DNA from: Planctomycetota bacterium
GTDB taxonomy: Bacteria; Planctomycetota; UBA1135; UBA2386
Assembly: GCA_965228735.1 (NCBI GenBank)
Contig: OZ245838.1
Coordinates: forward strand, 4,608,001 to 4,672,000
Direction: 5' to 3'
DNA length: 64,000 bases
Shown here: piece after piece, positions 452 through 49,444 of the stretch
Numbering within the stretch: the first letter of the stretch is position 1
How the letters are laid out: the number at the start of each line of letters is the position of its first letter
Program-made: the position numbers and the translations under genes
Notes under the pieces: model-generated
What the model saw: the letters and a program-made list of their open reading frames with translations, nothing else
Database searches by the model: none
What the model was told of the DNA's origin: nothing

Positions 452-475
452 GGTGCCAAGGACCCGCGCCGTGCG

Positions 476-1639: not shown

Positions 1640-1675
1640 GGCGCTGCCCCCCTCTCGCGCACACTCCCTTCGGCC

Positions 1676-2689: not shown

Positions 2690-2720
2690 TCCGAGGCTGC
2701 GCGTCGGCTAGCGTTTTGGA

Positions 2721-13385: not shown

Positions 13386-13665
13386 GCGGCCGGTCGTGAG
13401 CTGCCAGCGGTAGTCTGGCACGTTCTCGGCGCACGGCCAGCCGATTGTACGAATGGTTCTCTTCTCGAGCACGGGAGACTTGGAGCCGACCTTGCAACAG
13501 TCGAGACGGCAGGGCGTCGGCATCCGTTCGGATGCGTGATCCGCTGATGGCATCGGTGCCTGCCGGCGGCGACCGGAGCGTTTTGGCTGGACTGGGTATC
13601 GTGACCGCTATTGAATCCGGATGGGCTTCGAGTGCCTCGTGGCCGAGGTTGCCGCAAGCCACCAC

Positions 13666-29349: not shown

Positions 29350-29414
29350 GGGCGGGTGTGTTCTTGTGGCGGTCTCGTGCGCCGGAACAATGGCGTCGCC
29401 CCTTCCCGAGGCCG

Positions 29415-30242
29415 ATGAGCGTCATTCCGGATATTCCCGCCATGGTGGCTGACCCACTTCCGGAGGTCGTGCTGACTGGCGTGCGCATTCACGCGATCGA
29501 CCAGCCACGGTGCGTTGCCCGTGTCATGGAGAGCCTCGACGCCGAGCGGGGTGGATGGATCGCGACGGCGAACCTCGACCATCTGCGCCGGTTGCGAAGC
29601 GACGCCGAGTTCCGCCGCGTCTACGACGACGCGGCGCTCGTCGTCGCCGATGGCATGCCGTTGGTTTGGGCGGCGAGACTCCAGGGCACGCCGCTACCGG
29701 AGCGCGTGGCAGGGTCCGATCTGATCCACAGTCTGTCGGCCGCTGCAGCAGAACGAGGGCGTCGTATCTTCCTGGTCGGCGGAGACCCTGGTACGGCGGA
29801 AGCCGCCGCGGCCAAGTTGGCGGCCGACAATCCGGGCCTGCAGGTCGCCGGTACCGACTGTCCGCCGTTCGGTTTCGAGCGTGATCCGGACCAGATGGCC
29901 GACCTGCGGCGCAAGCTGGCCGCGAGCGGCGCCGACCTCGTTTTCGTTGGGCTGGGCTCGCCCAAACAGGAGTTCCTGATCGACGCGATTCATGAAGTGC
30001 TGCCGGCCGCATGGTGGGTGGGCATCGGCATCAGTTTCAGCTTCGTCTGCGGTGAAGTCCGACGGGCCCCGGTCTGGGTACGGCGGGTCGGACTGGAATG
30101 GGCTCATCGCTTGCTGCAAGAACCCCGCCGACTCGGAGCGCGGTACCTCTGGCACGGGCCGCCCTTCGTCATGCGCCTGTTTGCGTCCGCGCTGTTCAGG
30201 CGCTTTCGGCCATCATCGGGCCGAACCCCGAGGAACCGGTAG
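29415..30242 (+). CDS. WecB/TagA/CpsF family glycosyltransferase
   Basis: TANLDH, VADGMP, ERVAGSDL, VGLGSPKQE, RAP.W....GLEW..RL..EP.RL..RY; start uncertain (29358/29415/29442). Confidence 0.92.
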   Translation: MSVIPDIPAMVADPLPEVVLTGVRIHAIDQPRCVARVMESLDAERGGWIATANLDHLRRLRSDAEFRRVYDDAALVVADGMPLVWAARLQGTPLPERVAGSDLIHSLSAAAAERGRRIFLVGGDPGTAEAAAAKLAADNPGLQVAGTDCPPFGFERDPDQMADLRRKLAASGADLVFVGLGSPKQEFLIDAIHEVLPAAWWVGIGISFSFVCGEVRRAPVWVRRVGLEWAHRLLQEPRRLGARYLWHGPPFVMRLFASALFRRFRPSSGRTPRNR

Positions 30243-30351: not shown

Positions 30352-31260
30352 ATGGCAATCGTGACCCTTCCGACCTTCCTCGTGATCGGCGCCGAGAAGG
30401 CCGGGACCACCGCGCTGCACGCGGCTCTCGATCGCCATCCGCGGGTGTTCATGAGCAACCCGAAGGAACCCTCCTTCTTCCTCTCCGAGGATTCGCGTTA
30501 TCTCGAGCAGGATCTGATGGGGCAGCCCCACGGCGACATCCGGACCCTCGCGGAGTACGAGGCTCTCTTCGCGGCCGCCGCGCCGGGGCAGGCGATCGGA
30601 GAATCCTCGCCCTGCTACCTCTACAGCCCCGACGCCGCCCGCTTCATCAAGAGCCTGATCCCCGACGTGCGCATCGTCGTGATGCTGCGTGATCCGGCGG
30701 AGCGGGCTTTCTCGCAGTTCACGTTCAATCAGCAGCGTGGTTGGGAGCCGCTATCCAGGACCTTCCAGGAAGCGCTCGCGCTCGAGGACGAGAGGGTGCG
30801 GGCGAACTCGATGTGGGCGTTCCACTACGTCAATCGTGGCATGTACGCGCGTCAGCTCGCGCCATACGTGGAGACGTTCGGTGACCAATTGCGGGCCTGG
30901 GCCTACGACGAGTTCGTCAAGGATCCTGCGAAGGTGCTGGGCGAGATCCACGATTTCCTGGGCGTGGAACGTGTCGATCTGGAAGAGCCCGCCCAGAGGA
31001 AGAACGTCACCTCGCTGCCACGGCTCGGGATCATCCGCCAGTTGCTCGATCGCCCGAATCCCGTGAAGGCCCTGGTCGGCCGTCTGATTCCGACGCACTT
31101 TCGGCGAGCCATGGGCGCGAGACTGCGGCAGTGGAACTCCCGCCGCCCGGAGCGCGACGACAGTTCGATCGCGTCGCTGAGGCCACGCTTCGTGGACGAC
31201 ATCGAGGCGCTGGCGTCCGGGTTGCTACCTGGAGCGCGGCGGTGGTTGGAGCGCGACTGA
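30352..31260 (+). CDS. Sulfotransferase
   Basis: IGAEKAGTT (5'-PSB), KEP.FF, GESSP.YL, LRDPAERAFS (3'-PB); ATG 30352. Confidence 0.9.
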   Translation: MAIVTLPTFLVIGAEKAGTTALHAALDRHPRVFMSNPKEPSFFLSEDSRYLEQDLMGQPHGDIRTLAEYEALFAAAAPGQAIGESSPCYLYSPDAARFIKSLIPDVRIVVMLRDPAERAFSQFTFNQQRGWEPLSRTFQEALALEDERVRANSMWAFHYVNRGMYARQLAPYVETFGDQLRAWAYDEFVKDPAKVLGEIHDFLGVERVDLEEPAQRKNVTSLPRLGIIRQLLDRPNPVKALVGRLIPTHFRRAMGARLRQWNSRRPERDDSSIASLRPRFVDDIEALASGLLPGARRWLERD

Positions 31261-31264
31261 GCCG

Positions 31265-34141
31265 TTACGCGGAGCGTTCGTGACCCGCAGTCTCTTCGCG
31301 GATGGCGGCCGCGAGGAGTGCGGCGTGGTCGAGCATGGTGTTGTGGTTCCCGGGTACCCACTCGACGCGCAAAGTACGGAAGCTCTTGCCCCAGCCGTTG
31401 TCTGGATCCATGACCCGGACGCCCGAGCCGTTGACCGACGTCGCTCTCGTGCCGGGGCCCAGCCAGACCTTCCGTTCGTCTCGGGGGCGGAAGAGCAGAA
31501 CGGGGATATCCAGACTCGGCGGCGAGAACGCGGCCGCGGCAACCTTGAATGCGTCTCGAATCCGGATCGAGCGGATCTGGCTCGGTGTGAGTCTCTCGGC
31601 GGGCTCTCGGTTGGCCGGGTTGCTCGGCGAAGCGTCGTCGTTCCGCCCCAGGCTGTGGCGGGCCTTCGTCAGCACTGCCTTGGAGATGCCACCCTCGTGC
31701 AGCAGCCGGCGGATCTGGAACATCCGGCGTTGCCAACCCTGCAGACGGCTCGTGGGGTGGCGGGTGTCGATGAGAAACAGCCCGGAAACGGTTTCGCCGG
31801 CGTCAATGAGTTGTTGCGCCATTGCCATCGCTATCAACCCGCCTCCGGAGTAGCCGCCGAGGTGATACGGCCCGTTGGGTTTCACCTGGCGGATCTCGCG
31901 GAGGAAGTCGCGAGCGGCGTCCTCGATCGTCTCGTGTGGCCCGTCATCTCCGAGAACGCCGCGGTACTGCAGCCCGAACACCGGCCGGTCCTCGAACTCG
32001 CGTGCGAGCCGCGCGAGCGTGACGACGTTGCCGTTGCGGCCCCCGACGACGAACAACGCGTGCGTCAGGTCCGGTTCCTGGGCTGCGGCCGCGTTGATCG
32101 GAACGACGAACCGATGCTCACGCTCCGAGGCTCCGGTGAGACGTGCTCGCACGAATCGGGCCAGGCTCCGGATCGACCCGGCTTCGAACAGCGTCGAGAT
32201 CGGCAACTCGAGCCCGGTGTGATCCAAGATTCTGGCGAAGACGCCGACCGCGATCAGCGAGTGCCCGCCGGCTTCGACGAAGTCGATGTCCGCATCGACG
32301 GGGCGGCCCAGGGCGTCCCGGAACGCCGCCGCGATCACCGTCTCGAGTTCGTCCAGATGCTGAACGCCGTTCGTTGACGGCGTTGCGGGGGAGTCGCGCG
32401 CGCTGTCGCGGTCCGCGAGCAGTGCGGCTGGGACGCTCAGCTCGAAGGACCGGTCGAGCGCACCGCCGTGCCTGCTGGTTGCGGATCTGCCCGACGTCGG
32501 CTTGGAGGCCGCGCTCTTCGGTGATCGGGTGGCGGGTTCGTTCGTGTCGGGCGTGACCTCGCCAGCCCGGGAAGCGTCCATCTCGAGCGTTCCGTGTTCT
32601 GCGATCGTTGCACCCGGCGCGATGGACCGCAGGAAGTCGAGTGCGGGCTCATTGCGATCGGTCTCTTTGTACTCGAGACCGACCTTGCCGAGACCTCGAT
32701 CGCGGGCGATGTCACCGAGCCGCTGCAGCATCCGGTGCTCGACTCCCCGTCCGAGCGCGCGGCAACTCAGCAAGAACGTCGGAGCGACAACGGCATCCCC
32801 GTTCACCCGGTAGATGACCAGGCCGACGATGCCGTACTCACCGAATCGGTCGCTGGCACCGACGAGGAACCCGCGATCTCCGGAGGCCAGATCGGACTCG
32901 AGCTCGTCGACTTTCCGCCGCCGAACGGAGAGGTGGAACTGGTTCGTGCGCAGTGTCAGTTCCGATGCGCGATCCATCCGCTCCGAGTCGATGTCGTGGA
33001 ACGTCAACCGCAGCTCCAGGTTGGCCAGGAACTCGCCGAGCGACGGTGCCGTATCGCGGTTCGCCTCGCGCGACAGATGGGCGCGGTAATACTCGACGCG
33101 GCTGCCGGAGGCCGCATCGTTGCGTAGATCGAACGCCCAATGGTGATCGCAGAATCGCACCATGTCGGCGTCGTTGTCCGGAAACCTCGTGACCGTCACG
33201 CCGGGGCAGTTGGCTTCGACCTCGGCACACTCGACCGGGTTGTCGTCGACGAAGATGAAGCTGTCCGTCCCGAGGCTGAGCTTCTCCCCGATCTCCCGGA
33301 TGTTTTCGGATTTCGGTCGCCAGTTGACCGCGGCGATGGTGACCGAGTCGCGCGGCAGGACCATGTCGTCGCGCTCTGCCCAGACACGCTCGACGTCCTC
33401 GGCAGAGTTCTTGGAGCACAGACCGATGACGACTCCGGACTCGGCCTGCGTGACGAGAAGGCGGTGCAGGGCGAGGTGGCCCTCGGTCAGTTCGATTCCC
33501 GTCGGCCCGACCTCGCCGCAGACGCCACGCCACAGGGTGTTGTCGCAATCGACGATGATGGCCTTGTGCGTTGGCTTGGTCCGCCGGTGCACTGCTCGAG
33601 CGAGTGCGGTGGCCCAGGCCGCATAGCCCGCCGGGGTGAACGGCATGGCACCGATCTTGTCACTCGCCGGGTCGTCGAACCTGGGCGTGGGGTAGGCGGC
33701 CTTGACCTCGTCTTCGACGATCAGGGTCACGTTCGGACTCTGGTCGATCGAGGCGCGCGCCCGTTCGACGATCGAGCCCCATTCGGCAGTGCTCTGACCG
33801 GTGCCGCGGCAGAGCCCCAGAATTGTTGGCGACGGCTGACGGGCCGCGGTCGCGATCAACTCGACAATCTGATCGGGGCCCGAGTCCTGCCAATCCGAGG
33901 GGCGGACGAGCATGGCGTGCAGTCGGTCCTCGGCGTCAGGCCGGGCTGCGGACGCGAGCAGGGTCTGGAACACCTGCCCGAACCCGTCTTCCTCGACTGC
34001 CCAGGGCATGCCGAGAGCCGTCGCCCAATGGGCGAGCAGTTCGCGGATCGGTTGCACCGAGAAGGTGCCACCGACGACGACGGTGAGTTGCTGCGGAGAC
34101 GACAAGATGGGCGAATTCAGGAGCTGGCCGACTATCGGCAA
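31265..34141 (-). CDS. FkbH-like (HAD-IIIC) glyceryl transferase fused to a carrier domain and a thioesterase
   Basis: VDCDNTLW.G, SKN, NWRPKS, FVDDNP.EC, RTNQF, DRFGEYG, LLSCRALGRGVE; carrier DFVEAGGHSL; TE GGYSGGG and VPGNH. Confidence 0.88.
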   Translation of the reverse strand: MPIVGQLLNSPILSSPQQLTVVVGGTFSVQPIRELLAHWATALGMPWAVEEDGFGQVFQTLLASAARPDAEDRLHAMLVRPSDWQDSGPDQIVELIATAARQPSPTILGLCRGTGQSTAEWGSIVERARASIDQSPNVTLIVEDEVKAAYPTPRFDDPASDKIGAMPFTPAGYAAWATALARAVHRRTKPTHKAIIVDCDNTLWRGVCGEVGPTGIELTEGHLALHRLLVTQAESGVVIGLCSKNSAEDVERVWAERDDMVLPRDSVTIAAVNWRPKSENIREIGEKLSLGTDSFIFVDDNPVECAEVEANCPGVTVTRFPDNDADMVRFCDHHWAFDLRNDAASGSRVEYYRAHLSREANRDTAPSLGEFLANLELRLTFHDIDSERMDRASELTLRTNQFHLSVRRRKVDELESDLASGDRGFLVGASDRFGEYGIVGLVIYRVNGDAVVAPTFLLSCRALGRGVEHRMLQRLGDIARDRGLGKVGLEYKETDRNEPALDFLRSIAPGATIAEHGTLEMDASRAGEVTPDTNEPATRSPKSAASKPTSGRSATSRHGGALDRSFELSVPAALLADRDSARDSPATPSTNGVQHLDELETVIAAAFRDALGRPVDADIDFVEAGGHSLIAVGVFARILDHTGLELPISTLFEAGSIRSLARFVRARLTGASEREHRFVVPINAAAAQEPDLTHALFVVGGRNGNVVTLARLAREFEDRPVFGLQYRGVLGDDGPHETIEDAARDFLREIRQVKPNGPYHLGGYSGGGLIAMAMAQQLIDAGETVSGLFLIDTRHPTSRLQGWQRRMFQIRRLLHEGGISKAVLTKARHSLGRNDDASPSNPANREPAERLTPSQIRSIRIRDAFKVAAAAFSPPSLDIPVLLFRPRDERKVWLGPGTRATSVNGSGVRVMDPDNGWGKSFRTLRVEWVPGNHNTMLDHAALLAAAIREETAGHERSA

Positions 34142-34354
34142 CGCATAACTGGGAATTGACTTACGAAGGGTGGTCAGGCTCCCGGGAGGGCCGGGAGCCG
34201 AGCGTGAACGTGGCTTCGCAACGGGGGACCGAGCCGCGGCTCGCGGAGTCGGGCAACGCGGTCCGAGCCGTTGGTCCCGGTGCGAAGGGCGGAATGCGCC
34301 CCGTGACCAGCAGGTCCCGTCGGCGGAACCGCCAGGCCCCGCGGGGGCGAGGAA

Positions 34355-35239
34355 CTAACGGCCCGGCAGCTGGTTTGTTGCAGCAAGAATCGTCGCGGCG
34401 GTTCGTGCGGCCCGAGTACCGGTGTGAGTGTTCGTGATCTTCTGCAGGGCCGCCCGAGCCGTATCGACGGTGCCGCCGGCAGCCGATTCCGTGAGAGCAT
34501 CCCGGAGCGCCTTCTCGGCCGTGATCTCGGCGACGAGTTCCGGCGCCCTCGTCCGCTGCAACAATCCTGCAGCTCTCGCTGCCAGGGTCGAGTTGGCGCC
34601 CGTTCTTTCGATGGCCTCGCAAAGCTCGGTCGCACGAGCGTATGCACCACTCGCCATTGCCTTCTCGGCGAGTCTCATGAGTCGGGCCAGGTCGCGGGCT
34701 CGATCGGCCGTGGTCGCGCGTTGCTCGGCGACGTAGTTCCGCACGGCGGCCATGTCGTCGAGTGGATTGCCCTCCATCACGACCGTGCCTTCGGGGGAGA
34801 GCAGGATGTACGACGGAACCGACTGTCGGTTCATCTCGAAGGGGTAGCCGTTCGTGAAGATCGCCGAGGTCCCGAACCACCCGCGTTCGAGCCCGAGGCG
34901 GAGAACGTCGTCGAGCTCGTGGCGTCGCTCGATCAGGATCGCCTGGAAGTGGTCGTCGAACTGACGCTGCAGATCGAGTGACGCCGGCACGGACGTCGCA
35001 ATGCAATGCCCTCAATTCTTGCCCCAGATCAGGATGAGCACGGGCACGCCGCGCAGGTCTTCGAGCGACCCTACTCCTCGGTCGTGGAACATCGGGCGAG
35101 AGAACTCGTGGCTCAGCCGATCGCCGACGCGGATGGCGCCGGGGCGGTGCGGTTGCCCGCGCGTCTTCTTGTACCAGTAGATTCCCGCGGCAGCCGCCAG
35201 GACGAGAACGGCGACCAGGATGATGCTCGGCGTCTTCAT
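34355..35239 (-). CDS. Probable selenoprotein: membrane-anchored thioredoxin-like (TlpA/redoxin) protein with UxxC motif
   Basis: ORFs 35012-35239 and 34355-34990 are in the same frame and separated only by TGA at 35014-35012; read-through gives LRGVPVLILIWGKN-U-GHC, a later VPSYILLSPEG.V motif and an N-terminal TM; 294 aa in total. Confidence 0.75.
34980..34997 (-). promoter_or_regulatory. Candidate bacterial SECIS element
   Basis: Minus-strand GACG-U-CC-GUGCC-GG-CGUC hairpin starting at +15 after the in-frame UGA; bulged U and a loop beginning with GU. Confidence 0.55.
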
Positions 35240-36303
35240 CGTCGGAGTAACTCACGGAAGCGGCACACCTCGGCCCGGAAGCCGGCTGAGTCGTGTTCGT
35301 CGTCTCGAACGACGGTGCGTTGCATTGTGATGGCGATGCGAGTCAGGTTGATCGGATTCGTATCGCGCTGGTTCATGCCGCCGTCACGAAAACCGGCGTA
35401 GCGGTAACCAGCCGCTCGAACGGCGGCCTCGACCCGCGCGTCCGAGTCGCCATTGGGGTAACACAGGCCGGAGACCGGCTTGTGGGTCCACTCTGCGAGC
35501 TGAGCAGCAGATTGGCGCAGCTCATGATCGAGGTCCGCGTCGTTCAGCAGCGGCAGAATCGGATGCGTCACCGAGTGCGAGCCGATCTCGTGGCCGCCGC
35601 GATCGAGCTCGATTACCTGCTCGGGAGTCATGGGGCGGCACAACGTGGCGTCGAAGGTGCCGCTGGCGACCGCCTGGGCCCGTTCGACGAACTCCATTCG
35701 CCGGGCTCCGGGGAGCGCCTTGAGGCTGTCGGTCCACGCCTGGCCGGTTGGAGGCTGCCCGTCGGCGGTAGCGGCCGAGGATTCACGCCGGACGGACCGA
35801 AGCAATTCGACCTGATCCTCGCGCGACAGCCGATCCCAGACGAATGCCGCCCGGTCGAACCACAACGCCTGGCCCGATTTCACGAAGTCGCTCGTGACGT
35901 AGAAGGTCCCTCGAACACCGTGCTTCTCGAGGATCGGAGCGGCTAGCGCGTGGTTGTCCCAATAGCCGTCGTCGAAGCTGATGGCGAGCAAGGGGCGACT
36001 CGCGGGACGGCCGTTCGCGAGTTCGTCCATGGCTTCTACGACCGGCAGAACCTCACAGTGCGACGCGAGCCACTCGACCTGGGCGTCGAACGAGTTCTGC
36101 GGAATCACCAGGCTCGCGAGCGGGTAATCGCGGCAATCCTCGAGCGGCAGCACGCGGTGATACATGAGGATCGTCAATCCGCGGCGCATTCGCCGTTCCA
36201 TCAGGCGCATCAATCCGGTCAGTTCGGCGACGCGGTCGATCCCCGAACGCAAGCGATGCTTGAAGGTGCGGGCGAGGCCAGGGGACTCGACGGCGGACGT
36301 CAT
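35236..36303 (-). CDS. Polysaccharide deacetylase (CE4/NodB-like)
   Basis: ILMYHRV, ISFDDGY.DN, EIGSHSVTHPIL, CYPNG; ATG 36303. Confidence 0.9.
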   Translation of the reverse strand: MTSAVESPGLARTFKHRLRSGIDRVAELTGLMRLMERRMRRGLTILMYHRVLPLEDCRDYPLASLVIPQNSFDAQVEWLASHCEVLPVVEAMDELANGRPASRPLLAISFDDGYWDNHALAAPILEKHGVRGTFYVTSDFVKSGQALWFDRAAFVWDRLSREDQVELLRSVRRESSAATADGQPPTGQAWTDSLKALPGARRMEFVERAQAVASGTFDATLCRPMTPEQVIELDRGGHEIGSHSVTHPILPLLNDADLDHELRQSAAQLAEWTHKPVSGLCYPNGDSDARVEAAVRAAGYRYAGFRDGGMNQRDTNPINLTRIAITMQRTVVRDDEHDSAGFRAEVCRFRELLRR

Positions 36304-37229
36304 CACTTTGCCAAGGCCTCGGTCCGAGTCCGCTGTGGTGATCGCAGGATTGGCGCCCGGAGTCGGTCGCGAAAGCGGTTGTCGCCGCGCCCGGTGAGTC
36401 GTTTCACCAACGACCGTACGCCAACGACGGTGACTTCCGCGCAGTCCGCGAACGCCGCGGCGACGACGCCGAAGTGCTTGCGCAGGTAGTAGAACCGACT
36501 CTCGTAGTAGTGCTTCGAGATGTCTTGCCCGTGCATCGTCTCGTTGGTCTTGGCGGTGCTCGCTCCTGCGAGGTGCGAGGCCACGGCTGCGCCCGTGACC
36601 CACAGCTCGTGACCGGCCTCGCACACGCGGCGACAGAGATCGGTCTCCTCGAAGTACAGGAAGAACCGTGGATCGAATCCGCCGAGCGCGACCATGACGT
36701 CACGACGCGCGAGCAGCACTGCACCGCACAGCCAGTCGGTCCGACGTGGGGCGGACCCCGGTGGGACCGGCTCACTGGGTGGGATCCTCCACCCCGCGGC
36801 GGCGGCAATGACGCGCCATGGAGTCGGCAAGGGATGGATCTTCTGGGCGGAACCGTTCGGATTGAGGATCGCCGGCGCCACGATGGCGGCCTGCGGGTGC
36901 TGCTCCAAGTGCTCCTGCAAGATCGCGAGTGCCGGCAAGGGCAGGACGGCGTCGGGGTTCAGGAACAGCACGTAGTCACCCTCGGCCATCGCCAGGCCGA
37001 TGTTGCACCCTCGACCGAAGCCGACGTTCTCCTTGCTCGCCACGACATCGACCCAGGGGAATCGCGATTCGACGGAGCCGGCCGTGTCGTCCGTACTCGC
37101 GTTGTCCACGACGATGACGCGCACCGTGCCTGCAGCTTGCCCGTCCGCGAGCGCCTCGAGCGCCGCGTCGACCGTGCCGGCTGAGTTGTACGTCACGATG
37201 ACGACCGTGATCGGGGCGCTGCGACTCAT
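36303..37229 (-). CDS. Glycosyltransferase family 2 (WbbL-like)
   Basis: VVIVTYNS, VVDNASTD, N.GFGRGCN, FLNPD, GGFD.RFFLYFEETDLC; ATG 37229. Confidence 0.92.
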   Translation of the reverse strand: MSRSAPITVVIVTYNSAGTVDAALEALADGQAAGTVRVIVVDNASTDDTAGSVESRFPWVDVVASKENVGFGRGCNIGLAMAEGDYVLFLNPDAVLPLPALAILQEHLEQHPQAAIVAPAILNPNGSAQKIHPLPTPWRVIAAAAGWRIPPSEPVPPGSAPRRTDWLCGAVLLARRDVMVALGGFDPRFFLYFEETDLCRRVCEAGHELWVTGAAVASHLAGASTAKTNETMHGQDISKHYYESRFYYLRKHFGVVAAAFADCAEVTVVGVRSLVKRLTGRGDNRFRDRLRAPILRSPQRTRTEALAK

Positions 37230-38245
37230 GACCGACCGAACAGTTTCTCGGGGAGCGTGGGGTAGGCCCCGCCGGTCTTGTAGCGGAAGAACGTCATCGA
37301 CTCCGGTGCCGCGATACGGGTGAGCTGGTAGGGGTCGGAGGCCGACGTGATCTGACGTCGGGCGCCCGACGCAACGGCAGAACTCAGCCCGGCGGCCTCG
37401 ACGAGATTCCGGCCGTCGGCGTCCGACCGACCATAGGGGAACGAGAAGTGAGCGGGTTCGTAGCCGAGCTCGCGACGGAACTCGTCGCAGCACGTGGTGA
37501 CCTCGTGGTCTCGCACCGCCGAATCCGCGTTCTGCAGGTCGCAGTGATCGGAGGTGTGTACGCCCAGCTCCATCAGGTCGTAGTCGTCGCGCAGTCGTCG
37601 AGCCTCGTCCCAGTTCATCGTCAGCCTGGGTCCGGTCTCCCGTGGCTGCAGCTGTTCCGTGAGGGTGGCCAGCAGGGCCTGACGCTGATCGAGGTTTCCG
37701 AGGATCATCGCCGAGTTGATCTCGGCACGGGCGCTTCGCTCGACGGGCCCGTGGTCGAGGCGAATCGGCGTATTGCGACCAGGCAGCGCCAGGTCCTCGC
37801 GGCTGCGGGTCCGGAAGATCGTGTGGACGCGGTCGACCCACTGATTCTCGCCGCGGCCCACGTATCCCGTACAGAGGTAGAGCAACGCTGGCAGTCCGAG
37901 CTCCGCGAGAATCGGCGCGGCGACCTCCAGGTTGTCGAGGTAACCATCGTCGAGAGTGACGACGACCGTTCCTGCTGGTGGTTCTTCGCCCTTCCGGATC
38001 GTTGCGACGAGGTCGCTGAGACCGATCACGCGACGGTGTCGCGCGAGGAACGTCATCTGTCGACGGAACAAGTTGGCGTCGATCGTGTTGGAAGGATCGT
38101 GCCAGCTACGCCGCTCCGGCGTGGAGACGCTGTGATACATCAGGATCACGGCGCCGACCGGCGACGCGGCGCGAACGTAGATCCAGGACAGGCCGCTCAG
38201 GTAGAGCCCCGCGTGCAGACCTTGCAAGACTCGTTGCTTCAACAC
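37226..38245 (-). CDS. Polysaccharide deacetylase (CE4/NodB-like)
   Basis: ILMYHSV, VTLDDGYLDN, GVHT..H, FSFPYG. Confidence 0.9.
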   Translation of the reverse strand: MLKQRVLQGLHAGLYLSGLSWIYVRAASPVGAVILMYHSVSTPERRSWHDPSNTIDANLFRRQMTFLARHRRVIGLSDLVATIRKGEEPPAGTVVVTLDDGYLDNLEVAAPILAELGLPALLYLCTGYVGRGENQWVDRVHTIFRTRSREDLALPGRNTPIRLDHGPVERSARAEINSAMILGNLDQRQALLATLTEQLQPRETGPRLTMNWDEARRLRDDYDLMELGVHTSDHCDLQNADSAVRDHEVTTCCDEFRRELGYEPAHFSFPYGRSDADGRNLVEAAGLSSAVASGARRQITSASDPYQLTRIAAPESMTFFRYKTGGAYPTLPEKLFGRS

Positions 38246-38302
38246 GGAGGAGATCGGTGCTCAGAGGCAGGCGGTTCGAGGTCGAGCGAAAGGGAGCGGC
38301 GA

Positions 38303-39025
38303 TCAGAAGTTCCCCACGGGGAAGGCGATCGGCAGCGGCAGGTTCTGGCGGATGTACTTGTCGACCCAGACGTTGATCTTGTCGATCATGTTGTTCGGGA
38401 CGTAGATCACGTCGTGCGGTTGGAGGAACACTGGTGTGCCGTCCACCCAGTTGTCGAGTCCGGCATCGAACTGCCAGACCTGGTGCCTTCGTTCGACTGG
38501 GAGCCAGCGGATCAGCATCGCTTCTTCGAGGAGTGCGGATCCCTTGACCGGCCCTCCGGCGCGTCCGATGGCCTCCAGGAAGGTAAGCTCACCGCGCCCG
38601 AACGCGACGACGCCCGGTATGTTGACCTCGCCGATCACCGTGACTTCGCGCGGCGCCGGGTCGATGATGTCGACGGACACGGTGCCCGCGCCCACCTCGC
38701 TCTGGTTGGCGTAGGCTTCGCTGACCTTGGCGCCGAGCGCCCCGACGGATAGTCCCACCAGCTGGAGCTCGCCCACGAACGTGAACGTCGCGCGGCCGTC
38801 GTCGCGCACGATGGTTTGGTGGTCCCACTCCGGCTTCTGCGGGAACCGCACACCGATCGTATCACCCGCGACGACGAACGCCTGTGGGGAGAGCGTCGCG
38901 TTGATGTCGGGAGCAACGGCACGCAAGGCCGGGAACGAGCAGCCACTGGCCAGAGTCAACGCCAGGAGTCCGAGAACTCGGCCCCCTGCTCGACGTGCCA
39001 ACGAATCACGGTTGCTCTCACGCAT
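38303..39025 (-). CDS. wza: Polysaccharide export lipoprotein (Wza/Poly_export-SLBB)
   Basis: Lipobox LASGC; GD.I.V, VR.DG, VIGEV..PG, EAI..AGG, LQP.DVIYVP. Confidence 0.85.
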   Translation of the reverse strand: MRESNRDSLARRAGGRVLGLLALTLASGCSFPALRAVAPDINATLSPQAFVVAGDTIGVRFPQKPEWDHQTIVRDDGRATFTFVGELQLVGLSVGALGAKVSEAYANQSEVGAGTVSVDIIDPAPREVTVIGEVNIPGVVAFGRGELTFLEAIGRAGGPVKGSALLEEAMLIRWLPVERRHQVWQFDAGLDNWVDGTPVFLQPHDVIYVPNNMIDKINVWVDKYIRQNLPLPIAFPVGNF

Positions 39026-39086
39026 CGGTCGTCGAGCATACCCCGCGTCGTGCTCGGCACACAGCGAACCCGCGCCCCGGCGGGCA

Positions 39087-39992
39087 CTACGAATCGGCGC
39101 GGGGAGTCGTTCGCGCTTCTCTGCCCGCGAGCCGTTCTGCCACCGTCCGGAGCTGACAAAGGTCGCGCGGCCGCGCCAGGCGGGAAACGCGGACGGAGCG
39201 CGCCAGTGCCACGCAGCTCTGCATCAGCGATTCGGGGCCGCTGACGCCGCTGAGAAGTTCGGGGAAGTACGAGTGCCGCAGCAACGCGACGCCCGCGGTG
39301 AGTCCGCGGAGCGGCGTCGGTTCGACGCTTCCGGTCGAACTCAGAACGTAGACGTGGCGCAGCCGGACCGGGCTGTCGGCACAGGATTCCGCGGGTACCC
39401 TGGCGACGCGCTTCTCGGGGCGGTCGCCGGGGCCGATGGGCCGGTTGTCCGGTACGACCTCACGGGTGGCCACCGGTCCGGGTGCGACCATTGGCTCGGT
39501 AGCCGTGGGGTCGATTGCCGCGATGTCGTCCGTCACGAACCGGCAGCCGAATTCGACCATGAGCCTGGCCAGCGTCGACTTGCCGACCCCGGAATCGCCA
39601 GCGAACGCGATGCCGGCCATCGTCGCGGGCTGCGCGACGCAGCTCGCGTGCAGGCAGAAGAATCCGCGTTGTTGCAGGAGCAGCCCCATGGCGGGGCCGG
39701 CGATGAACTGTGCGAGGTCCTGACTCGGCTCGACGTCTACGCCGGATGGCGTCACGGTGATCGATCGCCCGTCACGGACGCGCAGCGCGCCGACCCCGGC
39801 GCGCACGATCGTCGAGTCCTGCGGCGACAGCCGGTGCCAGTCGCCGCTGTGATCGGGCGGCGCAGCCCCGTCGGCAGGGAGTGACGAGGTTTCGATCGTG
39901 ACGTCCGTTGCGTCACGCGAGGATTCCGGCCGCAGGCTGGGGAGCGGTACTTCCGAACGGATGGACAGTCCGTATGCGCGGTATGTCGGCAC
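39087..39992 (-). CDS. HPr-kinase-like lasso peptide kinase
   Basis: Y.AYGL.I.SE..LP start, LHASCV, Walker A GDSGVGKST, VTDD; immediately downstream of the lasso precursor. Confidence 0.82.
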   Translation of the reverse strand: MPTYRAYGLSIRSEVPLPSLRPESSRDATDVTIETSSLPADGAAPPDHSGDWHRLSPQDSTIVRAGVGALRVRDGRSITVTPSGVDVEPSQDLAQFIAGPAMGLLLQQRGFFCLHASCVAQPATMAGIAFAGDSGVGKSTLARLMVEFGCRFVTDDIAAIDPTATEPMVAPGPVATREVVPDNRPIGPGDRPEKRVARVPAESCADSPVRLRHVYVLSSTGSVEPTPLRGLTAGVALLRHSYFPELLSGVSGPESLMQSCVALARSVRVSRLARPRDLCQLRTVAERLAGREARTTPRADS

Positions 39993-40066
39993 GGACGAAC
40001 TGCCTCAACGACCGAGCGCGCTCGGTTGAACTCGAACGGTCCTGGGCAGAGCCAGCTGGCCGAGCG

Positions 40067-40237
40067 TTAGCTCGAGCCCGGGTTCGCCCACGGGTTCCAA
40101 CCCGATCCCTGGCCGTTGAAGAATTCGCCCCAGCGGCCGCCAATCCATTGCGTGAGTTCTTCGACTCGGCCTTGGACTTCGATGGATGGCGTTTCGTAGG
40201 TGCGGTCGGTGTCGTTGGAGTGAGTCTGATCGTTCAT
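40067..40237 (-). CDS. Lasso peptide precursor (56 aa): MNDQTHSNDTDRTYETPSIEVQGRVEELTQ | WIGGRWGEFFNGQGSGWNPWANPGSS
   Basis: Leader YETPSI (YxxPxL-type), G, Thr at -2; acceptor Glu at core position 8; lies between cyclase and kinase. Confidence 0.88.
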   Translation of the reverse strand: MNDQTHSNDTDRTYETPSIEVQGRVEELTQWIGGRWGEFFNGQGSGWNPWANPGSS

Positions 40238-40343
40238 CAGAGAGCTAACCAGGGTAGAAGGGTCTGGCGCAGGGGCCATCAGAAGATACCCCAGCAACGG
40301 GGTGTGGGAAGGGGGGTTGCGCCTTTTCTTCGAGCGCCTCGGC

Positions 40344-42209
40344 TCAGCGCGAGCGGACCCAGAATCCGAGCAAGACGCCGAGCCAGAGCGCCATTCCGTC
40401 GGACTCCGCGATGCCACCGGGGGGTAGCGCCAGGATTCGGCGGAGTGCCCCGAGGTCCACGAACTCATCGAGGCCCGGAGAGTTGCGGAGTAGCGAATCG
40501 ATACGATCTCGGTCTGCGACCAGGAATCCCTGCTCGAACTGGTCACCCCAATGTGACTTGTGAACGCGAGTCCGGATTGCCTCGGGAACGATCCCGCGCA
40601 AGGCCCGGCGCTGGATGGCTCGATCGTAGCCGCCATGGAGTCGTTGCTCGGGTGGCAGCCCGTAGCAGAATTCGATCAGCCGGTGGTCGAAGTAGGGGTG
40701 CCGGTGATCGAGCCCGAACGCCGCGCTCGCCTTGTCGTGGACCTCGAGCGAGTGCGCGATCAGCGGGGTCGTCAGGGCGCGGTGGTGGGCCTCGCGCAAG
40801 CTTCGGGGCGGGCGGTTCGCCTCGACGACCGCCTGGCGATCTCGCATTCGGGCGGTCCAGTCGACTTCACGCGCAAAGCCGGGCGCGATGCTCGATGGCA
40901 CGGCCCCGAGTTCTCGTCGCCAGGAGCGGGTCACGGAACGGACCACCGGCGCGAGTCCGAAGTGCCAGAAGAACCGCTTCGTCGACTGCCGAAACACGCC
41001 GGCGAGTTGCCGGCACTCGCGCACGGCGCGAACGATGCGGCCGCGGCGCACGAGTTCGGCGAGCCAATCCGTGCCGTGACTGACGGTCGTGTCGCCATCG
41101 ACGCCGTCGATGACGGCTCGGATCCCGAGTTCGCGGGCGCGCCGGGCGAGTGACCAATAGACGTAGAGGTTGGGCGCGCAGAACGGTTCTTCGACCCGTT
41201 CGAGCATGGCGTCCACCTCGCGCAAGGGGCTCGTGCTGCTCGCCGAGACGAACTCTGCCGGCCACGGCTCGTTCGGTTCGTCGTCGCCGTTCGCCGCGAG
41301 GACCAGGTCGATGTACTGCCGCTCGTCGATCCGCGGGAAGTCGGGGAACAGCGCCGACAGCGTCGTGATCGGATGCGCTCCCCAGGCTTTCCGATTCGCG
41401 TGCGCGAGCCGGACCAGGCCTGACGAATCCAGGCCGCCGCTCAGCAGGATCGCCGTCGGCTCGTCGCGGTGCAGGCGGCAGCGGAGCGCTTCCGTGAGCG
41501 TGTCGCGGAAGCGCTCGGCATAGCTCTGGTCATTGGCCAGCTCGACGCGGTGATCCGGGTCGAGCGCCCAGTAGCGGCGCAGGGACTCCCCGCTCTCGCG
41601 GACGGTCAGGGAATGGCCGGGTGGCAGCCGTCGAACGTGCTCGTAGAACGTGCGGTCGTGGTCGGCGAATACCTGGCCGAGGTAGTCCGCGATCTTGCCG
41701 TTGTCGAGATCACGCGGCACGTCGGCGGCGTCGAGCAGCGGGCCGATCTCCGATGCGAAGACGAAACGCTCGGGCGCGAGGTGGTAGTAGAACGGGCGCG
41801 TTCCGAGGCGGTCTCGCGCGCAGAACAGCTGACGCTCGAGGGATGACCAGATGGCAACCACGAAGTCACCGAACAGGTGCTCGGGGCAGCTCTCACCCCA
41901 GCGTTCATAGGCCCGCAAGACGATGTCGGCGGGGGTCGCATCGGCCGGGGCGTCGAGTTCGGCTGCGAGGTCCGAGAGGTTGTCGATGCGGGCCGCGATC
42001 GCGGCGATTCGACCGTTGCGCTGCGCGATCGCGGCCTCGGACCCGGTCGGGGCGAGCACGCCGAACGCCGCGCCGGCCGTGTTCGTCGCGAGGCGAGCTG
42101 CGCCGCGATGCGCCATCCGACCGGCCATTGCGGCAATTCGGTCCCGGTCGAGGGGGCGTTCGTCCCGTTGCCAGGCTCCAACGAGCCCGCTGCTGATGAT
42201 CCCGATCAT
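40344..42209 (-). CDS. Lasso peptide cyclase (asparagine synthetase-like, C protein)
   Basis: RIDN..DL, GDF..AIW, RDRLGTRP, LSGGLDSS, G.DGD, HPYFD.RL.EF; no N-terminal catalytic Cys; start ATG 42209 inferred. Confidence 0.88.
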   Translation of the reverse strand: MIGIISSGLVGAWQRDERPLDRDRIAAMAGRMAHRGAARLATNTAGAAFGVLAPTGSEAAIAQRNGRIAAIAARIDNLSDLAAELDAPADATPADIVLRAYERWGESCPEHLFGDFVVAIWSSLERQLFCARDRLGTRPFYYHLAPERFVFASEIGPLLDAADVPRDLDNGKIADYLGQVFADHDRTFYEHVRRLPPGHSLTVRESGESLRRYWALDPDHRVELANDQSYAERFRDTLTEALRCRLHRDEPTAILLSGGLDSSGLVRLAHANRKAWGAHPITTLSALFPDFPRIDERQYIDLVLAANGDDEPNEPWPAEFVSASSTSPLREVDAMLERVEEPFCAPNLYVYWSLARRARELGIRAVIDGVDGDTTVSHGTDWLAELVRRGRIVRAVRECRQLAGVFRQSTKRFFWHFGLAPVVRSVTRSWRRELGAVPSSIAPGFAREVDWTARMRDRQAVVEANRPPRSLREAHHRALTTPLIAHSLEVHDKASAAFGLDHRHPYFDHRLIEFCYGLPPEQRLHGGYDRAIQRRALRGIVPEAIRTRVHKSHWGDQFEQGFLVADRDRIDSLLRNSPGLDEFVDLGALRRILALPPGGIAESDGMALWLGVLLGFWVRSR

Positions 42210-42323
42210 GGAAACGTCGCGCCCCGGAGGACAGCGGCCGGAGCATACTGGCCGATGTTGCGTTACGCTTCCCGGGCCTTGCCGAGGGAAGTTCGGCACA
42301 TGTGGGTCGACCCGACGCAGCGC

Positions 42324-42623
42324 ATGACAGGAGACATCGGACTCAACTCGGTCGTTCGAGCAAACATTCGTCAGCTTTCGGTCGAGATCGACGGCGAGAC
42401 CGTCCTGCTCAACTTCGACGACGGATTCTACTACTCGATCAACTCGGTCGGAGCGCGGATCTGGACGCTGGTCCAGGACGCGACCCGAGTGTGCGACGTG
42501 AAGGCGGCGTTGCTTTCGGAGTTCGACGTCGACTCGGCCAGATGCGAGGCCGACCTGCTGGCGCTGCTCGCCGACCTCGAGGCGAAGAACCTCATCGAGG
42601 TACTCGATGCGGATCCTGCGTAG
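42324..42623 (+). CDS. PqqD-family RiPP recognition element (lasso B1)
   Basis: 99 aa; EIDGETVLL...G.YY.IN.VGARIW..., EFDV....CE.DL..LL..L....LI. Confidence 0.9.
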   Translation: MTGDIGLNSVVRANIRQLSVEIDGETVLLNFDDGFYYSINSVGARIWTLVQDATRVCDVKAALLSEFDVDSARCEADLLALLADLEAKNLIEVLDADPA

Positions 42624-43053
42624 GTTCTGGCGGCTGTCGTTCTCCGAGAAGCTGATGCTCGGCAAGGCGTGGGGGTTGCTCGCCGTCGTGCGAAGCAGCA
42701 TGTGGATCGCGGGGTTCGCGCGGACCAAGCGCTGGGTCGATCGTCGACACGCGCGCGTGGAACGACTCGTGCGGTCGCGCCAGGAGCCGCATCGGATCGC
42801 CCGAATGGTCGAGATCGCGAGTCACTTCTTCCCTGGCGGTCGGCATTGCCTGAGTCGGGCGATGGTGCTCGAGGTGCTGCTGCGCCGCCGCGGCTACGAC
42901 GCCAAACTGGAGATCGGTGTCGCGTTGGCGGATGCACCCGTCCAGAGCGGGTCACGGCTCTCGGCGCACGCCTGGGTCACGCACGGTGACCGGATCCTTC
43001 TCGGTGGAGCCGAGGCTCCCGACTTCAAGCGGTTGACGCGGTCGGGTCGGTGA
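42607..43053 (+). CDS. Lasso peptide leader peptidase (B2, transglutaminase-like)
   Basis: HCLSRA (Cys), L.IGV, AHAWV (His); overlaps the RRE gene. Confidence 0.9.
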   Translation: MRILRRFWRLSFSEKLMLGKAWGLLAVVRSSMWIAGFARTKRWVDRRHARVERLVRSRQEPHRIARMVEIASHFFPGGRHCLSRAMVLEVLLRRRGYDAKLEIGVALADAPVQSGSRLSAHAWVTHGDRILLGGAEAPDFKRLTRSGR

Positions 43054-44051
43054 CTCGTTCGACGGACAGCTTCTCCGCGGCGGACGCGCCGCCTCGCATC
43101 CGCGTCACCGCGCTGCAGAAGCGCTACCCGCGGAACCGCAATCTGCTGCGGTTCCTGCGCGCGCCGCATCGCCGCGACTACACGATGGCGCTCCGTGGGG
43201 TCGATCTCGTGATCCCGCAGGGCGGCATCTACGCGCTCCTCGGCCCCAACGGCGCTGGCAAGACGACGCTACTGAAAGCGCTCTCGGGTCTGCTCCTGGC
43301 CAACTCTGGCACGATCGAGATCGATGGCATCGACCTGACGAACGAGCCGCGGAAGTTGCGCAATCGCGTCGCGCTGGCCGTGTGCGACGAACGTTCGTTC
43401 TACTGGCGCATCAGCGGCCGCGAGAACCTGCGGTTCTACGCGACGCTCAACGGGCTCGAGGGCGCGGCGCGCGATCGCCGGATCGATGAATGCCTCGCGA
43501 TGGTGCGGTTGGGGTCGGCTGGCGATCGGCGCTACATGGAGTACTCGGCGGGCATGCGGCAGAGCCTCGCGCTGGCGCGCGGGCTGTTGCTCGATCCGCC
43601 GATCCTCCTCATGGACGAGCCAACGCGGTCGCTCGACCCCGAGGCCACGGCGGCGGTCCACGATGTGATCACCGGGTTGCAGGCTGCCGATCCGAGCCGC
43701 GTGTTCTTCTACTCGACCCATGACCTGGCCGAGGCGGAATCGATCTCGAGTGATGTCATCGTGCTGCGGGGCGGGCGCATCGTGATGCAGCGGAGCCTCG
43801 CTCGCGAGGCCGGCTACGTCTACCGCGTGCGCACCCATCCCGAGCTGCCCGAGAGATTGCTCGACGACATCGACGGGCTGCAGGTGCTGGGCAGCTCGGA
43901 AGCCGGCACGGTCGTCGAGTTCGCCGAGTTCCGGACGCTCGATGCGGTGCTCGCGCGGCTCGCCGAGCGTCGTTTGCAGGTGCGCGAGGTCGCAGAGCAG
44001 CGGTCGCGGCTCGGCGAACTGTATCGCTCGAGCGCGGAGGCGCAGCGATGA
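43050..44051 (+). CDS. ABC exporter ATP-binding protein
   Basis: GPNGAGKT, YSAGMRQ signature, LLMDEP, STH. Confidence 0.92.
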   Translation: MTRSTDSFSAADAPPRIRVTALQKRYPRNRNLLRFLRAPHRRDYTMALRGVDLVIPQGGIYALLGPNGAGKTTLLKALSGLLLANSGTIEIDGIDLTNEPRKLRNRVALAVCDERSFYWRISGRENLRFYATLNGLEGAARDRRIDECLAMVRLGSAGDRRYMEYSAGMRQSLALARGLLLDPPILLMDEPTRSLDPEATAAVHDVITGLQAADPSRVFFYSTHDLAEAESISSDVIVLRGGRIVMQRSLAREAGYVYRVRTHPELPERLLDDIDGLQVLGSSEAGTVVEFAEFRTLDAVLARLAERRLQVREVAEQRSRLGELYRSSAEAQR

Positions 44052-44863: not shown

Positions 44864-44874
44864 CCGGTCGCGCC

Positions 44875-45537: not shown

Positions 45538-45566
45538 GCGCGCAAGGTAGCGCTATCCATGCCGCA

Positions 45567-46133: not shown

Positions 46134-46148
46134 TGCAGAGGCCCCGGC

Positions 46149-48171: not shown

Positions 48172-48263
48172 ACGTGCCGAGGCGGGTGTCTCACGATGGA
48201 AGCGGGTCGAGCCTCGACTAGCATGTCCGTGTCACTCTGCTGCCGGTCGGGACGGCTTCGGTA

Positions 48264-49358: not shown

Positions 49359-49444
49359 GGCCGCGCGGGGCCCCTCGGCAGCCTGCCCGCTCGACCGCAT
49401 TTCCGCCTACGGTCGCACCGCATTCGGACTAAGATCTGCCGCGC

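What the first reader, a model, noticed from the sequence alone, without database searches (positions are those of the whole stretch)
31265..42209. Lasso genes appear transcriptionally continuous with polysaccharide export genes: possible peptide-glycan conjugate system
Seen: one uninterrupted minus-strand run of cyclase, precursor, kinase, (61-bp gap) wza, deacetylase, GT2, deacetylase, redoxin and FkbH fusion; I noticed no U-tailed terminator between kinase and wza. In the whole 5-39 kb Wzx/Wzy/Wzc/Wza locus I recognise no initiating phosphoglycosyl transferase (WcaJ/WbaP/WecA type). Established: pseudomycoidin is glycosylated on its phosphorylated C-terminal Ser. Inference (speculative): the phospho-lasso peptide could be a primer, cap or surface anchor for the glycan, or be glycosylated by neighbouring GTs, i.e. 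a RiPP-glycan hybrid rather than an antibiotic. The priming enzyme may simply lie outside the window.
Basis: inference. Interest (0 to 1): 0.75.

Follow-up and report, generated by a model that had tools for sequence, protein, structure and literature searches.

The report
Phospho-lasso peptide inherited with polysaccharide locus
A complete gene set for a knotted, likely phosphate- and sugar-tagged peptide sits beside polysaccharide-export genes, as it does in related bacteria, but the sugar chain is most likely started by an ordinary lipid-priming enzyme encoded elsewhere in the genome, so the peptide is likely a partner of the sugar coat and not its primer.

Summary
The gene order and the 61-bp kinase-wza gap are real.

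The primer idea fails. The genome has three stand-alone WcaJ/WbaP-type transferases and one WecA-like gene. One is the closest relative of the priming enzyme inside a relative's orthologous lasso-polysaccharide locus. Both long-contig orthologous loci carry their own priming enzyme.

Transcriptional continuity is doubtful: the gap holds a strong -10-like element, and in all 6 other orthologous loci psmN lies antisense after the kinase.

Proximity is conserved: wzc/wza lie within 5 kb of the precursor in 6 of 7 orthologous loci. Three relatives lack both the ring-forming Glu and a detectable cyclase but keep the Trp-rich, Ser-ended tail, kinase, PsmN and wzc.

Lasso/capsule co-location is published for Bacilli (PMC13381572), and this scan noted it before on other DNA (92 notes, 81+ genomes). 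Verdict: a new member of a known kind with an open function; a covalent peptide-glycan conjugate is possible (about 0.2) but untested.

The parts
40344..42209 (-). Lasso macrolactam cyclase (C), 621 aa
   Evidence: Asn_synthase + GATase; NF033535 E 5e-150, 501 bits vs cut-off 525; SGGLDS motif, no N-terminal Cys; 50% identical to cyclases of G680 and G678
42242..42247 (-). -10-like hexamer upstream of the cyclase (predicted promoter)
   Evidence: score 8.7; 2.5% of convergent regions reach it
40067..40237 (-). Precursor (A), 56 aa: YxxP leader, Thr at -2, 26-aa Trp-rich core with Trp1, Glu8 and C-terminal Ser
   Evidence: NF033521 21.9 bits, over cut-off 19; 9 homologues at 62-81% local identity, all ending in Ser; core positions
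40283..40288 (-). -10-like hexamer upstream of the precursor (predicted promoter for A-K)
   Evidence: score 9.2; 1.3% of convergent regions reach it
39087..39992 (-). HprK-like lasso kinase (K)
   Evidence: Hpr_kinase_C E 2e-6, below cut-off; H115, K138, D155, D156 invariant in 13 sequences
39035..39040 (-). -10-like hexamer TATGCT in the 61-bp kinase-wza gap (predicted wza promoter)
38303..39025 (-). wza/OPX polysaccharide export protein, short (240 aa)
   Evidence: Poly_export + SLBB; weak TIGR03027/EpsY matches
37226..38245 (-). Polysaccharide deacetylase
   Evidence: PF01522; 43% orthologue in the G678 lasso-EPS locus
36303..37229 (-). GT2 glycosyltransferase (best match Myxococcus EpsD model, below cut-off)
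   Evidence: 42% orthologue beside the G678 cyclase
35236..36303 (-). Second polysaccharide deacetylase
   Evidence: PF01522
34355..35239 (-). Redoxin-like protein with in-frame TGA in a U-x-x-C position (likely selenoprotein)
   Evidence: selA, selD and tRNA-Sec in the genome; no Pfam/NCBIfam match for either half
31265..34141 (-). FkbH-ACP-thioesterase fusion (likely acyl decoration of the glycan)
   Evidence: TIGR01686 over cut-off; PP-binding and Thioesterase
42324..42623 (+). B1 / RRE (PqqD family)
   Evidence: PF05402
42607..43053 (+). B2 leader peptidase
   Evidence: NF033537 over cut-off; Cys81 and His-Ala-Trp invariant in 5 sequences
43050..44863 (+). ABC-2 exporter (ATPase 43050-44051, permease 44048-44863)
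   Evidence: 58-61% identical to exporters in orthologous lasso clusters
48264..49358 (+). PsmN-like nucleotidyltransferase (NTP_transf_5), displaced 3.4 kb from the ABC genes
   Evidence: PF14907; only copy in the genome; groups with PsmN of the 6 orthologous loci, plus one long branch, support 0.98; Pol-beta NTase fold
17556..19775 (+). wzc-like co-polymerase
   Evidence: TIGR03007 E 3e-19 and TIGR01005, below cut-offs; homologues lie beside the precursor in relatives
19812..21125 (+). Likely wzy polymerase (inferred)
   Evidence: No Pfam/NCBIfam match; hydrophobic, between wzc and wzx; 33.5% orthologue in G680
21128..22585 (+). wzx flippase
   Evidence: Polysacc_synt/Polysacc_synt_3
29358..30242 (+). 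WecG/TagA/CpsF (GT26) second-sugar transferase
   Evidence: PF03808; TIGR00696 over cut-off, EpsA model E 3e-53
30352..31260 (+). Sulfotransferase
   Evidence: Sulfotransfer_3

Best explanation
This is a paeninodin/pseudomycoidin-type lasso cluster co-inherited with a Wzx/Wzy polysaccharide locus: the peptide is likely phosphorylated on its last Ser, likely hexose-capped through the PsmN homologue and likely exported by its own ABC-2 pump to work beside the polysaccharide outside the cell, while the polysaccharide is likely primed on undecaprenyl phosphate by a stand-alone transferase elsewhere in the genome. Shown: gene content, conserved proximity, in-locus priming enzymes in relatives, three priming enzymes in trans here. 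Inferred from characterised homologues: K modifies the C-terminal Ser of the precursor, B1/B2 remove the leader, C closes a Trp1-Glu8 ring, PsmN adds one or two hexoses. Inferred from motifs: three transcription starts on the minus strand (C; A-K; wza onward), with read-through possible. Inferred from comparative data: the Trp-rich, Ser-ended tail rather than the ring is what is kept with the exporter, which fits a matrix or surface role better than an antibiotic one. The best candidate primer is the Bac_transf at genome position 5.754 Mb.
For: Three Bac_transf genes over the TIGR03025 cut-off and one WecA-like gene lie outside any polysaccharide cluster. The genome's second wza/wzc/exosortase locus also has no priming gene within the 33 kb read. 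The 5.754-Mb enzyme is 65% identical to, and syntenic with, the priming gene of a wza-wzc locus in lasso-free sister genome G001. It groups with the in-locus enzyme of G680's orthologous lasso locus, support 1.00. G680 and G591 have Bac_transf 11 and 8 kb from the precursor; G166 and G186 have one about 8 kb from B2 and G428 a WecA-like gene about 2 kb from it. The locus has Wzx and a GT26 whose named family members act on undecaprenyl-PP-sugar. M. xanthus also keeps EpsA/C/D/E in a separate cluster from its primer EpsZ (PMC7484181 passages), and those four models are the best NCBIfam matches for window genes (all below cut-off). Linkage: 6 of 7 orthologous loci. In the phylum sample, 6 of 8 other cyclase+kinase clusters with 30 kb or more of context have wza/wzc within 20 kb, against 1 of 9 other B2 loci. 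Across phyla, 17 of 47 long loci have wza/wzc/wzx/PGT within 10 kb, against at most 4.8% of 22-kb windows of this genome. G591, G592 and G677 lack Asp/Glu in core positions 1-12 and have no cyclase orthologue (best 27-33%, against 50% in G680/G678), yet keep B2, K, PsmN, the tail and wzc.
Against: No product, transcript or mutant was observed. Same-genus genomes G001 and G002 have wza/wzc but no B2 or PsmN detected (90% and 88% complete), so the peptide is not needed for polysaccharide export in general. Across phyla, 30 of 47 long loci show no export gene within 10 kb, and a Ser in the last three residues is no commoner in linked loci (15 of 25 precursors) than in unlinked ones (15 of 29). 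Half of the 24 linked cross-phylum loci are cyanobacterial and not independent. The background rate comes from one genome. The cyclase-lacking genomes are incomplete (94, 87, 70%), and two of their contigs break next to B1/B2. The kinase is about 10 residues shorter than its relatives after the DD motif, and psmN is displaced, so the cluster may be partly impaired.
Confidence: 0.55

Rival explanations
1. Covalent conjugate as cap or anchor: the polysaccharide is primed on lipid as usual, but a repeat unit or chain is then joined to the peptide's phospho-Ser (by PsmN acting as a phospho-sugar transferase, or by locus GTs extending the PsmN hexose), giving a RiPP-glycan hybrid.
For: K and psmN are the genes nearest to wzc/wza in 5 of 6 other orthologous loci. 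The C-terminal Ser is invariant in 10 of 10 precursors and survives apparent ring loss. PsmN is needed for hexose on phospho-Ser (PMC6993621 passages). Native products could not be assigned in Paenibacillus, where the authors suspect extra sugar modification (PMC13381572 passage). FKRP is a weak fold neighbour of PsmN (Z 6.3, rmsd 3.5, 135 aligned).
Against: The peptide has its own ABC-2 exporter and PsmN looks cytoplasmic, whereas Wzy polymer is made in the periplasm (recalled). No ligase-like gene is conserved in the module. PsmN's best fold matches are ordinary nucleotidyltransferases (MenT1 Z 12.6, ANT(2'') Z 11.8). A Ser near the C-terminus is not enriched in linked loci across phyla.
Confidence: 0.2
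2. Hitch-hiking: the lasso module is an independent signal or antimicrobial cluster that travels in polysaccharide islands because these are gene-exchange hot spots or share regulation, with no biochemical link.
For: Patchy distribution (precursor family in 6 of 339 genomes of the class; B2 not found in either same-genus genome); gene order is reshuffled between relatives; many related clusters have no export genes nearby.
Against: The kinase-PsmN-wzc/wza adjacency persists across two families despite rearrangement and only 35-45% kinase identity; B2 loci without the cyclase+kinase pair are rarely linked (1 of 9); loss of the ring while the tail is kept is hard to square with a lasso antibiotic.
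Confidence: 0.2
3. One reading: the phospho-lasso peptide replaces the missing priming transferase and is the primer on which the Wzx/Wzy glycan is built.
For: No priming gene in the window or 18 kb upstream, nor on G035's 1.67-Mb lasso-EPS contig; a diphospho-hexose pseudomycoidin species (m/z 2940) resembles a PP-sugar primer (PMC6993621 passage).
Against: In-locus priming enzymes in G680, G591, G166, G186, G428 and in 7 of 80 cross-phylum loci; three intact-looking enzymes in trans here; the second wza locus of this genome also lacks one; Wzx/Wzy pathways start on undecaprenyl phosphate (PMC12802240, start of abstract in listing).
Confidence: 0.04

Closest known systems
Pseudomycoidin cluster psmCAKB1B2ND, Bacillus pseudomycoides (PMC6993621; passages read)
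   Same: C, A ending in Ser, HprK-like K, split B1/B2, NTP_transf_5 PsmN, ABC transporter; C-A-K order.
   Different: Likely Gram-negative host; Trp1 26-aa core; ABC-2 (ATPase + permease) exporter; B1/B2/ABC divergent from C; psmN displaced; abuts wza.
Paeninodin-like lasso clusters embedded in capsular polysaccharide loci of Bacilli (PMC13381572; abstract, section 6, passages and part 2 of the references read)
   Same: Phospho-lasso genes inside or beside a polysaccharide locus; role unknown; those authors report joint up-regulation with an eps gene and speculate on biofilm.
   Different: Different phylum with an OPX/Wza export route; no SpI-type peptidase seen; a conserved peptide family shared across genera.
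Linear polyphosphorylated peptides (LPP; lppAKBSDN; PMC13381572)
   Same: RRE + HprK kinase + NTP transferase beside polysaccharide genes; resembles the apparently cyclase-less relatives G591, G592, G677.
   Different: LPP uses an SpI peptidase and phosphorylates core Ser3; these relatives keep B2 and a C-terminal Ser. This genome has a cyclase and Glu8.
Myxococcus xanthus eps Wzx/Wzy pathway (PMC7484181; passages read)
   Same: Best NCBIfam matches EpsA, EpsC, EpsD, EpsE, weak EpsY; primer EpsZ sits in a separate cluster from these transferases.
   Different: All matches are below equivalog cut-offs; no lasso genes are mentioned in the passages read; here the primer candidate is over 1 Mb away.

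Membership tests
Lasso peptide BGC | Precursor with YxxP leader and Thr at -2 | tested here: met
   NF033521 over cut-off; alignment
Lasso peptide BGC | Asp/Glu acceptor at core position 7-9 | tested here: met
   Glu8, given cleavage after the Thr-Gln pair
Lasso peptide BGC | AsnB-like macrolactam cyclase, RRE (B1) and B2 peptidase with Cys/His | tested here: met
   the cyclase scores 501 against the NF033535 cut-off of 525, far above generic AsnB (207)
Lasso peptide BGC | Threaded topology of the product | not testable with these tools
   Needs NMR or thermal/protease assays
Paeninodin/pseudomycoidin phospho-lasso subtype | Kinase with His-Lys-Asp-Asp motif and precursor C-terminal Ser (PMC9266682 passages) | tested here: met
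   H115, K138, D155, D156; Ser last in 10 of 10
Paeninodin/pseudomycoidin phospho-lasso subtype | PsmN-like NTP transferase with metal-binding Asp pair | tested here: met
   PF14907; D128/D130 invariant in 21 sequences; groups with the cluster's orthologues
Paeninodin/pseudomycoidin phospho-lasso subtype | Phosphorylated or hexosylated product | not testable with these tools
   Needs mass spectrometry
Wzx/Wzy polysaccharide pathway | Wzx flippase, co-polymerase, OPX | tested here: met
   Wzx and Wza over Pfam cut-offs; co-polymerase only by below-cut-off NCBIfam matches
Wzx/Wzy polysaccharide pathway | Wzy polymerase | tested here: inconclusive
   19812-21125 has no family match; assigned by position and orthology
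Wzx/Wzy polysaccharide pathway | Priming phosphoglycosyl transferase available | tested here: met
   Three in trans; in-locus in orthologous loci
Linear polyphosphorylated peptides (LPP) | No cyclase; SpI-type leader peptidase | tested here: not met
   Cyclase and B2 present in this genome; SpI was not searched for specifically
   Promoter-like element in the gap; orientation not conserved; no RNA holder listed

The most novel reading that the evidence does not exclude
This peptide family is a secreted glycan-carrying tag: kinase plus PsmN turn its last Ser into a phospho-sugar handle that joins the peptide covalently to repeat units of the neighbouring polysaccharide, the Trp-rich tail anchors or cross-links the coat, and the lasso ring is an optional stabiliser that some relatives have lost while keeping B2. 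That would be a RiPP-polysaccharide conjugate and would give paeninodin-type peptides their missing function.
Probability: 0.2. Interest if true: 0.8.

Novelty: new member of a known kind. Interest (0 to 1): 0.42.

Why it matters
The role of paeninodin-type phospho-lasso peptides is stated as unknown in 2026 (PMC13381572). This locus removes one hypothesis (peptide as primer). It also supplies a natural test series: one conserved peptide family, tied to wzc/wza in two bacterial families, with ring-competent members and apparently ring-less ones. That points experiments at the C-terminal phospho-Ser, PsmN and matrix phenotypes rather than at antibiotic screens. The co-location itself is not new.

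Tried and rejected
Terminator scan: uninformative (9 found, 7.2 expected); the strict sigma-70 scan found 0 sites, so a genome-trained -10 matrix was used.

RNA evidence: no RNA holder listed; one guessed-RNA run laid nothing. Neither counts as evidence.

Rfam and ARAGORN: nothing in the window. Repeats in 31000-49500: only short, low-identity GC-rich matches, no insertion scar seen.

PsmN against PDB sequences: no match. Foldseek: nothing at E <= 0.001. The monotopic priming-transferase fold is not listed among the matches, which does not exclude it.

Two custom-profile 'PGT' hits (L133, L156) and one in G186 proved to be PglF-type dehydratases and were dropped; L111's wzc was unconfirmed and the locus was counted by its wza. 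One search checked 34 of the 41 marker ORFs listed; left out were three contig-edge fragments, one sulfotransferase and three metagenome ORFs.

A test of whether linked loci prefer Ser-ended precursors gave no difference.

The phylum was not established (one search gave no kinship). 'Likely planctomycete' rests on DUF1549/DUF1553/DUF1501 genes in a same-phylum genome and on recall that these families are typical of that phylum.

PMC4919450 (paeninodin kinase paper) is not held; its content is taken second-hand from PMC9266682. Paper searches listed no paper on this peptide family or on a lasso-polysaccharide link outside Bacilli. I saw only the top listings, most subscription papers are missing, and the supplements of PMC13381572, which tabulate neighbourhoods, were not read.

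No complex prediction was run.
Full report
Observation. The minus-strand run is as described: cyclase, precursor, kinase, a 61-bp gap, wza, deacetylase, GT2, deacetylase, a redoxin-like gene and an FkbH-ACP-thioesterase fusion. Three DNA runs cover 31000-49500 in single contigs with no differences; they may be this genome's source. B1 (42324-42623), B2 (42607-43053) and an ABC-2 exporter (43050-44863) are on the plus strand. A PsmN-like nucleotidyltransferase lies at 48264-49358 and is the genome's only copy. The polysaccharide locus has wzx, a wzc-like gene, a likely wzy, GT2/GT4/GT26 transferases and a sulfotransferase. It has no Bac_transf or WecA-type gene.

The peptide. The 56-aa precursor passes the lasso leader model. 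Cleavage after the conserved Thr-Gln gives a 26-aa core with Trp1, Glu8 and a final Ser. Nine homologues were found among 10 candidates, one being the window's own; all end in Ser and share an almost invariant Trp-rich core. The kinase has the His-Lys-Asp-Asp residues that a review names as catalytic in kinases of the C-terminal Ser (PMC9266682, passages). In pseudomycoidin, hexose on the phospho-Ser depends on psmN (PMC6993621, passages). The displaced gene groups with PsmN of the orthologous clusters (support 0.98, with one extra long branch). Kinases (7 of 7) and B2s (6 of 6) of these loci form clean clades (FastTree, midpoint root). Its model (pLDDT 92.6) is a Pol-beta-type nucleotidyltransferase: best matches MenT1 (Z 12.6, rmsd 2.9, 169 aligned) and ANT(2'') (Z 11.8), with FKRP weaker (Z 6.3).

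The missing primer is not missing. The genome has three Bac_transf genes (0.125, 1.068, 5.754 Mb), all over the TIGR03025 cut-off, and a WecA-like gene at 0.139 Mb. None lies in a polysaccharide cluster. The genome's second wza/wzc/exosortase locus also has none within the 33 kb read. In the lasso-free sister genome G001, the position syntenic with 5.754 Mb holds a wza-PGT-GT2-wzc locus; this genome keeps only the PGT (65% identical) and one GT2 there. That enzyme groups with the in-locus PGT of G680's orthologous lasso locus (support 1.00). G680 and G591, the two orthologous loci on long contigs, carry Bac_transf 11 and 8 kb from the precursor. G166 and G186 have one about 8 kb from B2, and G428 has a WecA-like gene beside B2. 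Seven of 80 cross-phylum loci have one within 10 kb. M. xanthus likewise keeps EpsA/C/D/E apart from its primer EpsZ (PMC7484181, passages), and those models are the best, though below-cut-off, matches for window genes. One counter-example remains: G035's 1.67-Mb lasso-EPS contig has no Bac_transf, but its genome has two on another contig.

Transcriptional continuity is doubtful. The lack of a U-tailed terminator says little (9 found, 7.2 by chance). The gap holds TATGCT 15 nt before the wza start. This hexamer occurs in 20 of 1358 divergent-upstream regions and 0 of 532 convergent regions. A -10 matrix trained on divergent regions scores the wza site 10.2, above all convergent regions. The cyclase (8.7) and precursor (9.2) also have sites; kinase, both deacetylases, GT2, redoxin and FkbH do not, but neither do B1 and wzc, so the matrix misses promoters. 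In all 6 other orthologous loci psmN follows the kinase on the opposite strand. The kinase-wza tandem is therefore specific to this genome and likely a product of rearrangement. Read-through is not excluded; no RNA run was listed.

Proximity is conserved. The precursor profile matched 7 of 339 genomes of the class. Six, including this one, are true family members; G035 matched by leader only. With metagenome locus L166 this gives 7 loci. In 6 of them wzc or wza lies within 5 kb of the precursor. In G678 the contig ends, but its cyclase contig carries wzc, wza, wzx and orthologues of the window's deacetylase and GT2. In a phylum sample, 36 of 401 genomes had B2. Among loci with at least 30 kb of context, 6 of 8 other cyclase+kinase clusters had wza/wzc within 20 kb, against 1 of 9 other B2 loci, four of which are one family. 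Among the best 80 of 586 cyclase relatives in GTDB, 24 of 80 (17 of 47 long loci) had wza, wzc, wzx or a PGT within 10 kb, against at most 4.8% of 22-kb windows here. Against over-reading: 12 of the 24 are cyanobacteria; most long loci show no export gene; Ser-ended precursors are not enriched in linked loci (15 of 25 vs 15 of 29); and the two same-genus genomes have wza/wzc but no B2 or PsmN detected.

The ring looks optional. G000, G680 and G678 have Glu8 and an orthologous cyclase (50% identity). G591, G592 and G677 have no Asp/Glu in the first 12 core residues and no cyclase orthologue (best 27-33%). They still keep B1, B2 with its Cys and His, kinase, PsmN, a Trp/Tyr-Asn-x-Trp...Pro-Gly...Ser tail and neighbouring wzc. 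They are 87, 70 and 94% complete, and two contigs break near B1/B2. G591's locus is intact on a 130-kb contig, and L166 shows other genes where G680 has its cyclase. Earlier scan notes on cyclase-less modules prompted this check. The pattern suggests that selection acts on the modified tail.

Mechanism and rivals. Most likely (0.55): a lipid-primed Wzx/Wzy polysaccharide using a transferase in trans, plus a co-inherited phospho(hexosyl) lasso peptide that is exported separately and works with the coat. Rivals are a covalent cap or anchor conjugate (0.2), hitch-hiking without function (0.2) and the peptide as primer (0.04). All biochemical steps are inferred from homologues.

Novelty. Co-location of paeninodin-like clusters with capsular polysaccharide loci, joint up-regulation with an eps gene and the biofilm speculation are in print for Bacilli (PMC13381572). 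This scan holds 92 similar notes from at least 81 genomes, none matching this precursor by sequence. My searches (top listings only) showed no paper on this peptide family. Supplements were not read. Verdict: a new member of a known kind; interest 0.42.

Noticed in passing
window 34355-35239 (-), TGA at 35014-35012: Redoxin-like gene with an in-frame TGA in a U-G-H-C motif; selA, selD and tRNA-Sec are present, and four more redoxin-like frames with TGA at the same motif position occur in the genome. Likely a selenoprotein inside a polysaccharide operon; no SECIS was established.
   Followed up: partly
window 17556-19775 (+): The C-terminal domain of the wzc-like protein lacks a recognisable Walker A; a stand-alone kinase-like domain lies at genome 6,765,856-6,766,620. 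May be a pseudokinase as reported for M. xanthus EcpK (PMC12004946, title and start of abstract only).
   Followed up: partly
window 38303-39025 (-): The wza is short (240 aa), as are its orthologues (211-247 aa); it may belong to the composite OPX/beta-barrel export type (PMC9601211, listing only). No barrel partner was sought.
   Followed up: no
window 191-5231 and L012:17236-17961: PPTase, ACP, acyl-CoA dehydrogenase, DUF1839 and a GH2-like gene flank the locus; the ACP is 70% identical to one two genes from psmN in G678, and G680 has NRPS/PKS genes between wzy and the cyclase. Suggests acyl or aminoacyl decoration belongs to the same island.
   Followed up: partly
window 13621-14919 (+): LarA-family nickel-dependent racemase (best model LarAH6, below cut-off) inside the polysaccharide locus.
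   Followed up: no
window 6611-8920 (+): Likely lipoprotein with Ig, PKD and beta-helix domains at the edge of the locus, possibly a glycan-binding or glycan-cleaving surface protein.
   Followed up: no
L010 (G000 5.742-5.762 Mb) versus L187-L188 (G001): This genome seems to have lost most of a wza-PGT-wzc locus present in its sister, keeping only the PGT and one GT2.
   Followed up: yes
L063-L064, L069-L070, L072-L073, L075-L076, L080-L081: Five genomes of one low-GC family carry kinase, B1, B2 and PsmN with no cyclase and no wza nearby.
   Followed up: no
L014-L017 (G023, G035): Same-family genomes carry a different two-precursor phospho-lasso cluster with a related ABC-2 exporter, a GT2 next to B1 and wza/wzc nearby.
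   Followed up: partly
L097, L100, L137, L138, L145: Cyclase relatives with kinase, and in three cases B2 and PsmN, occur in Methanobacteriaceae archaea.
   Followed up: no
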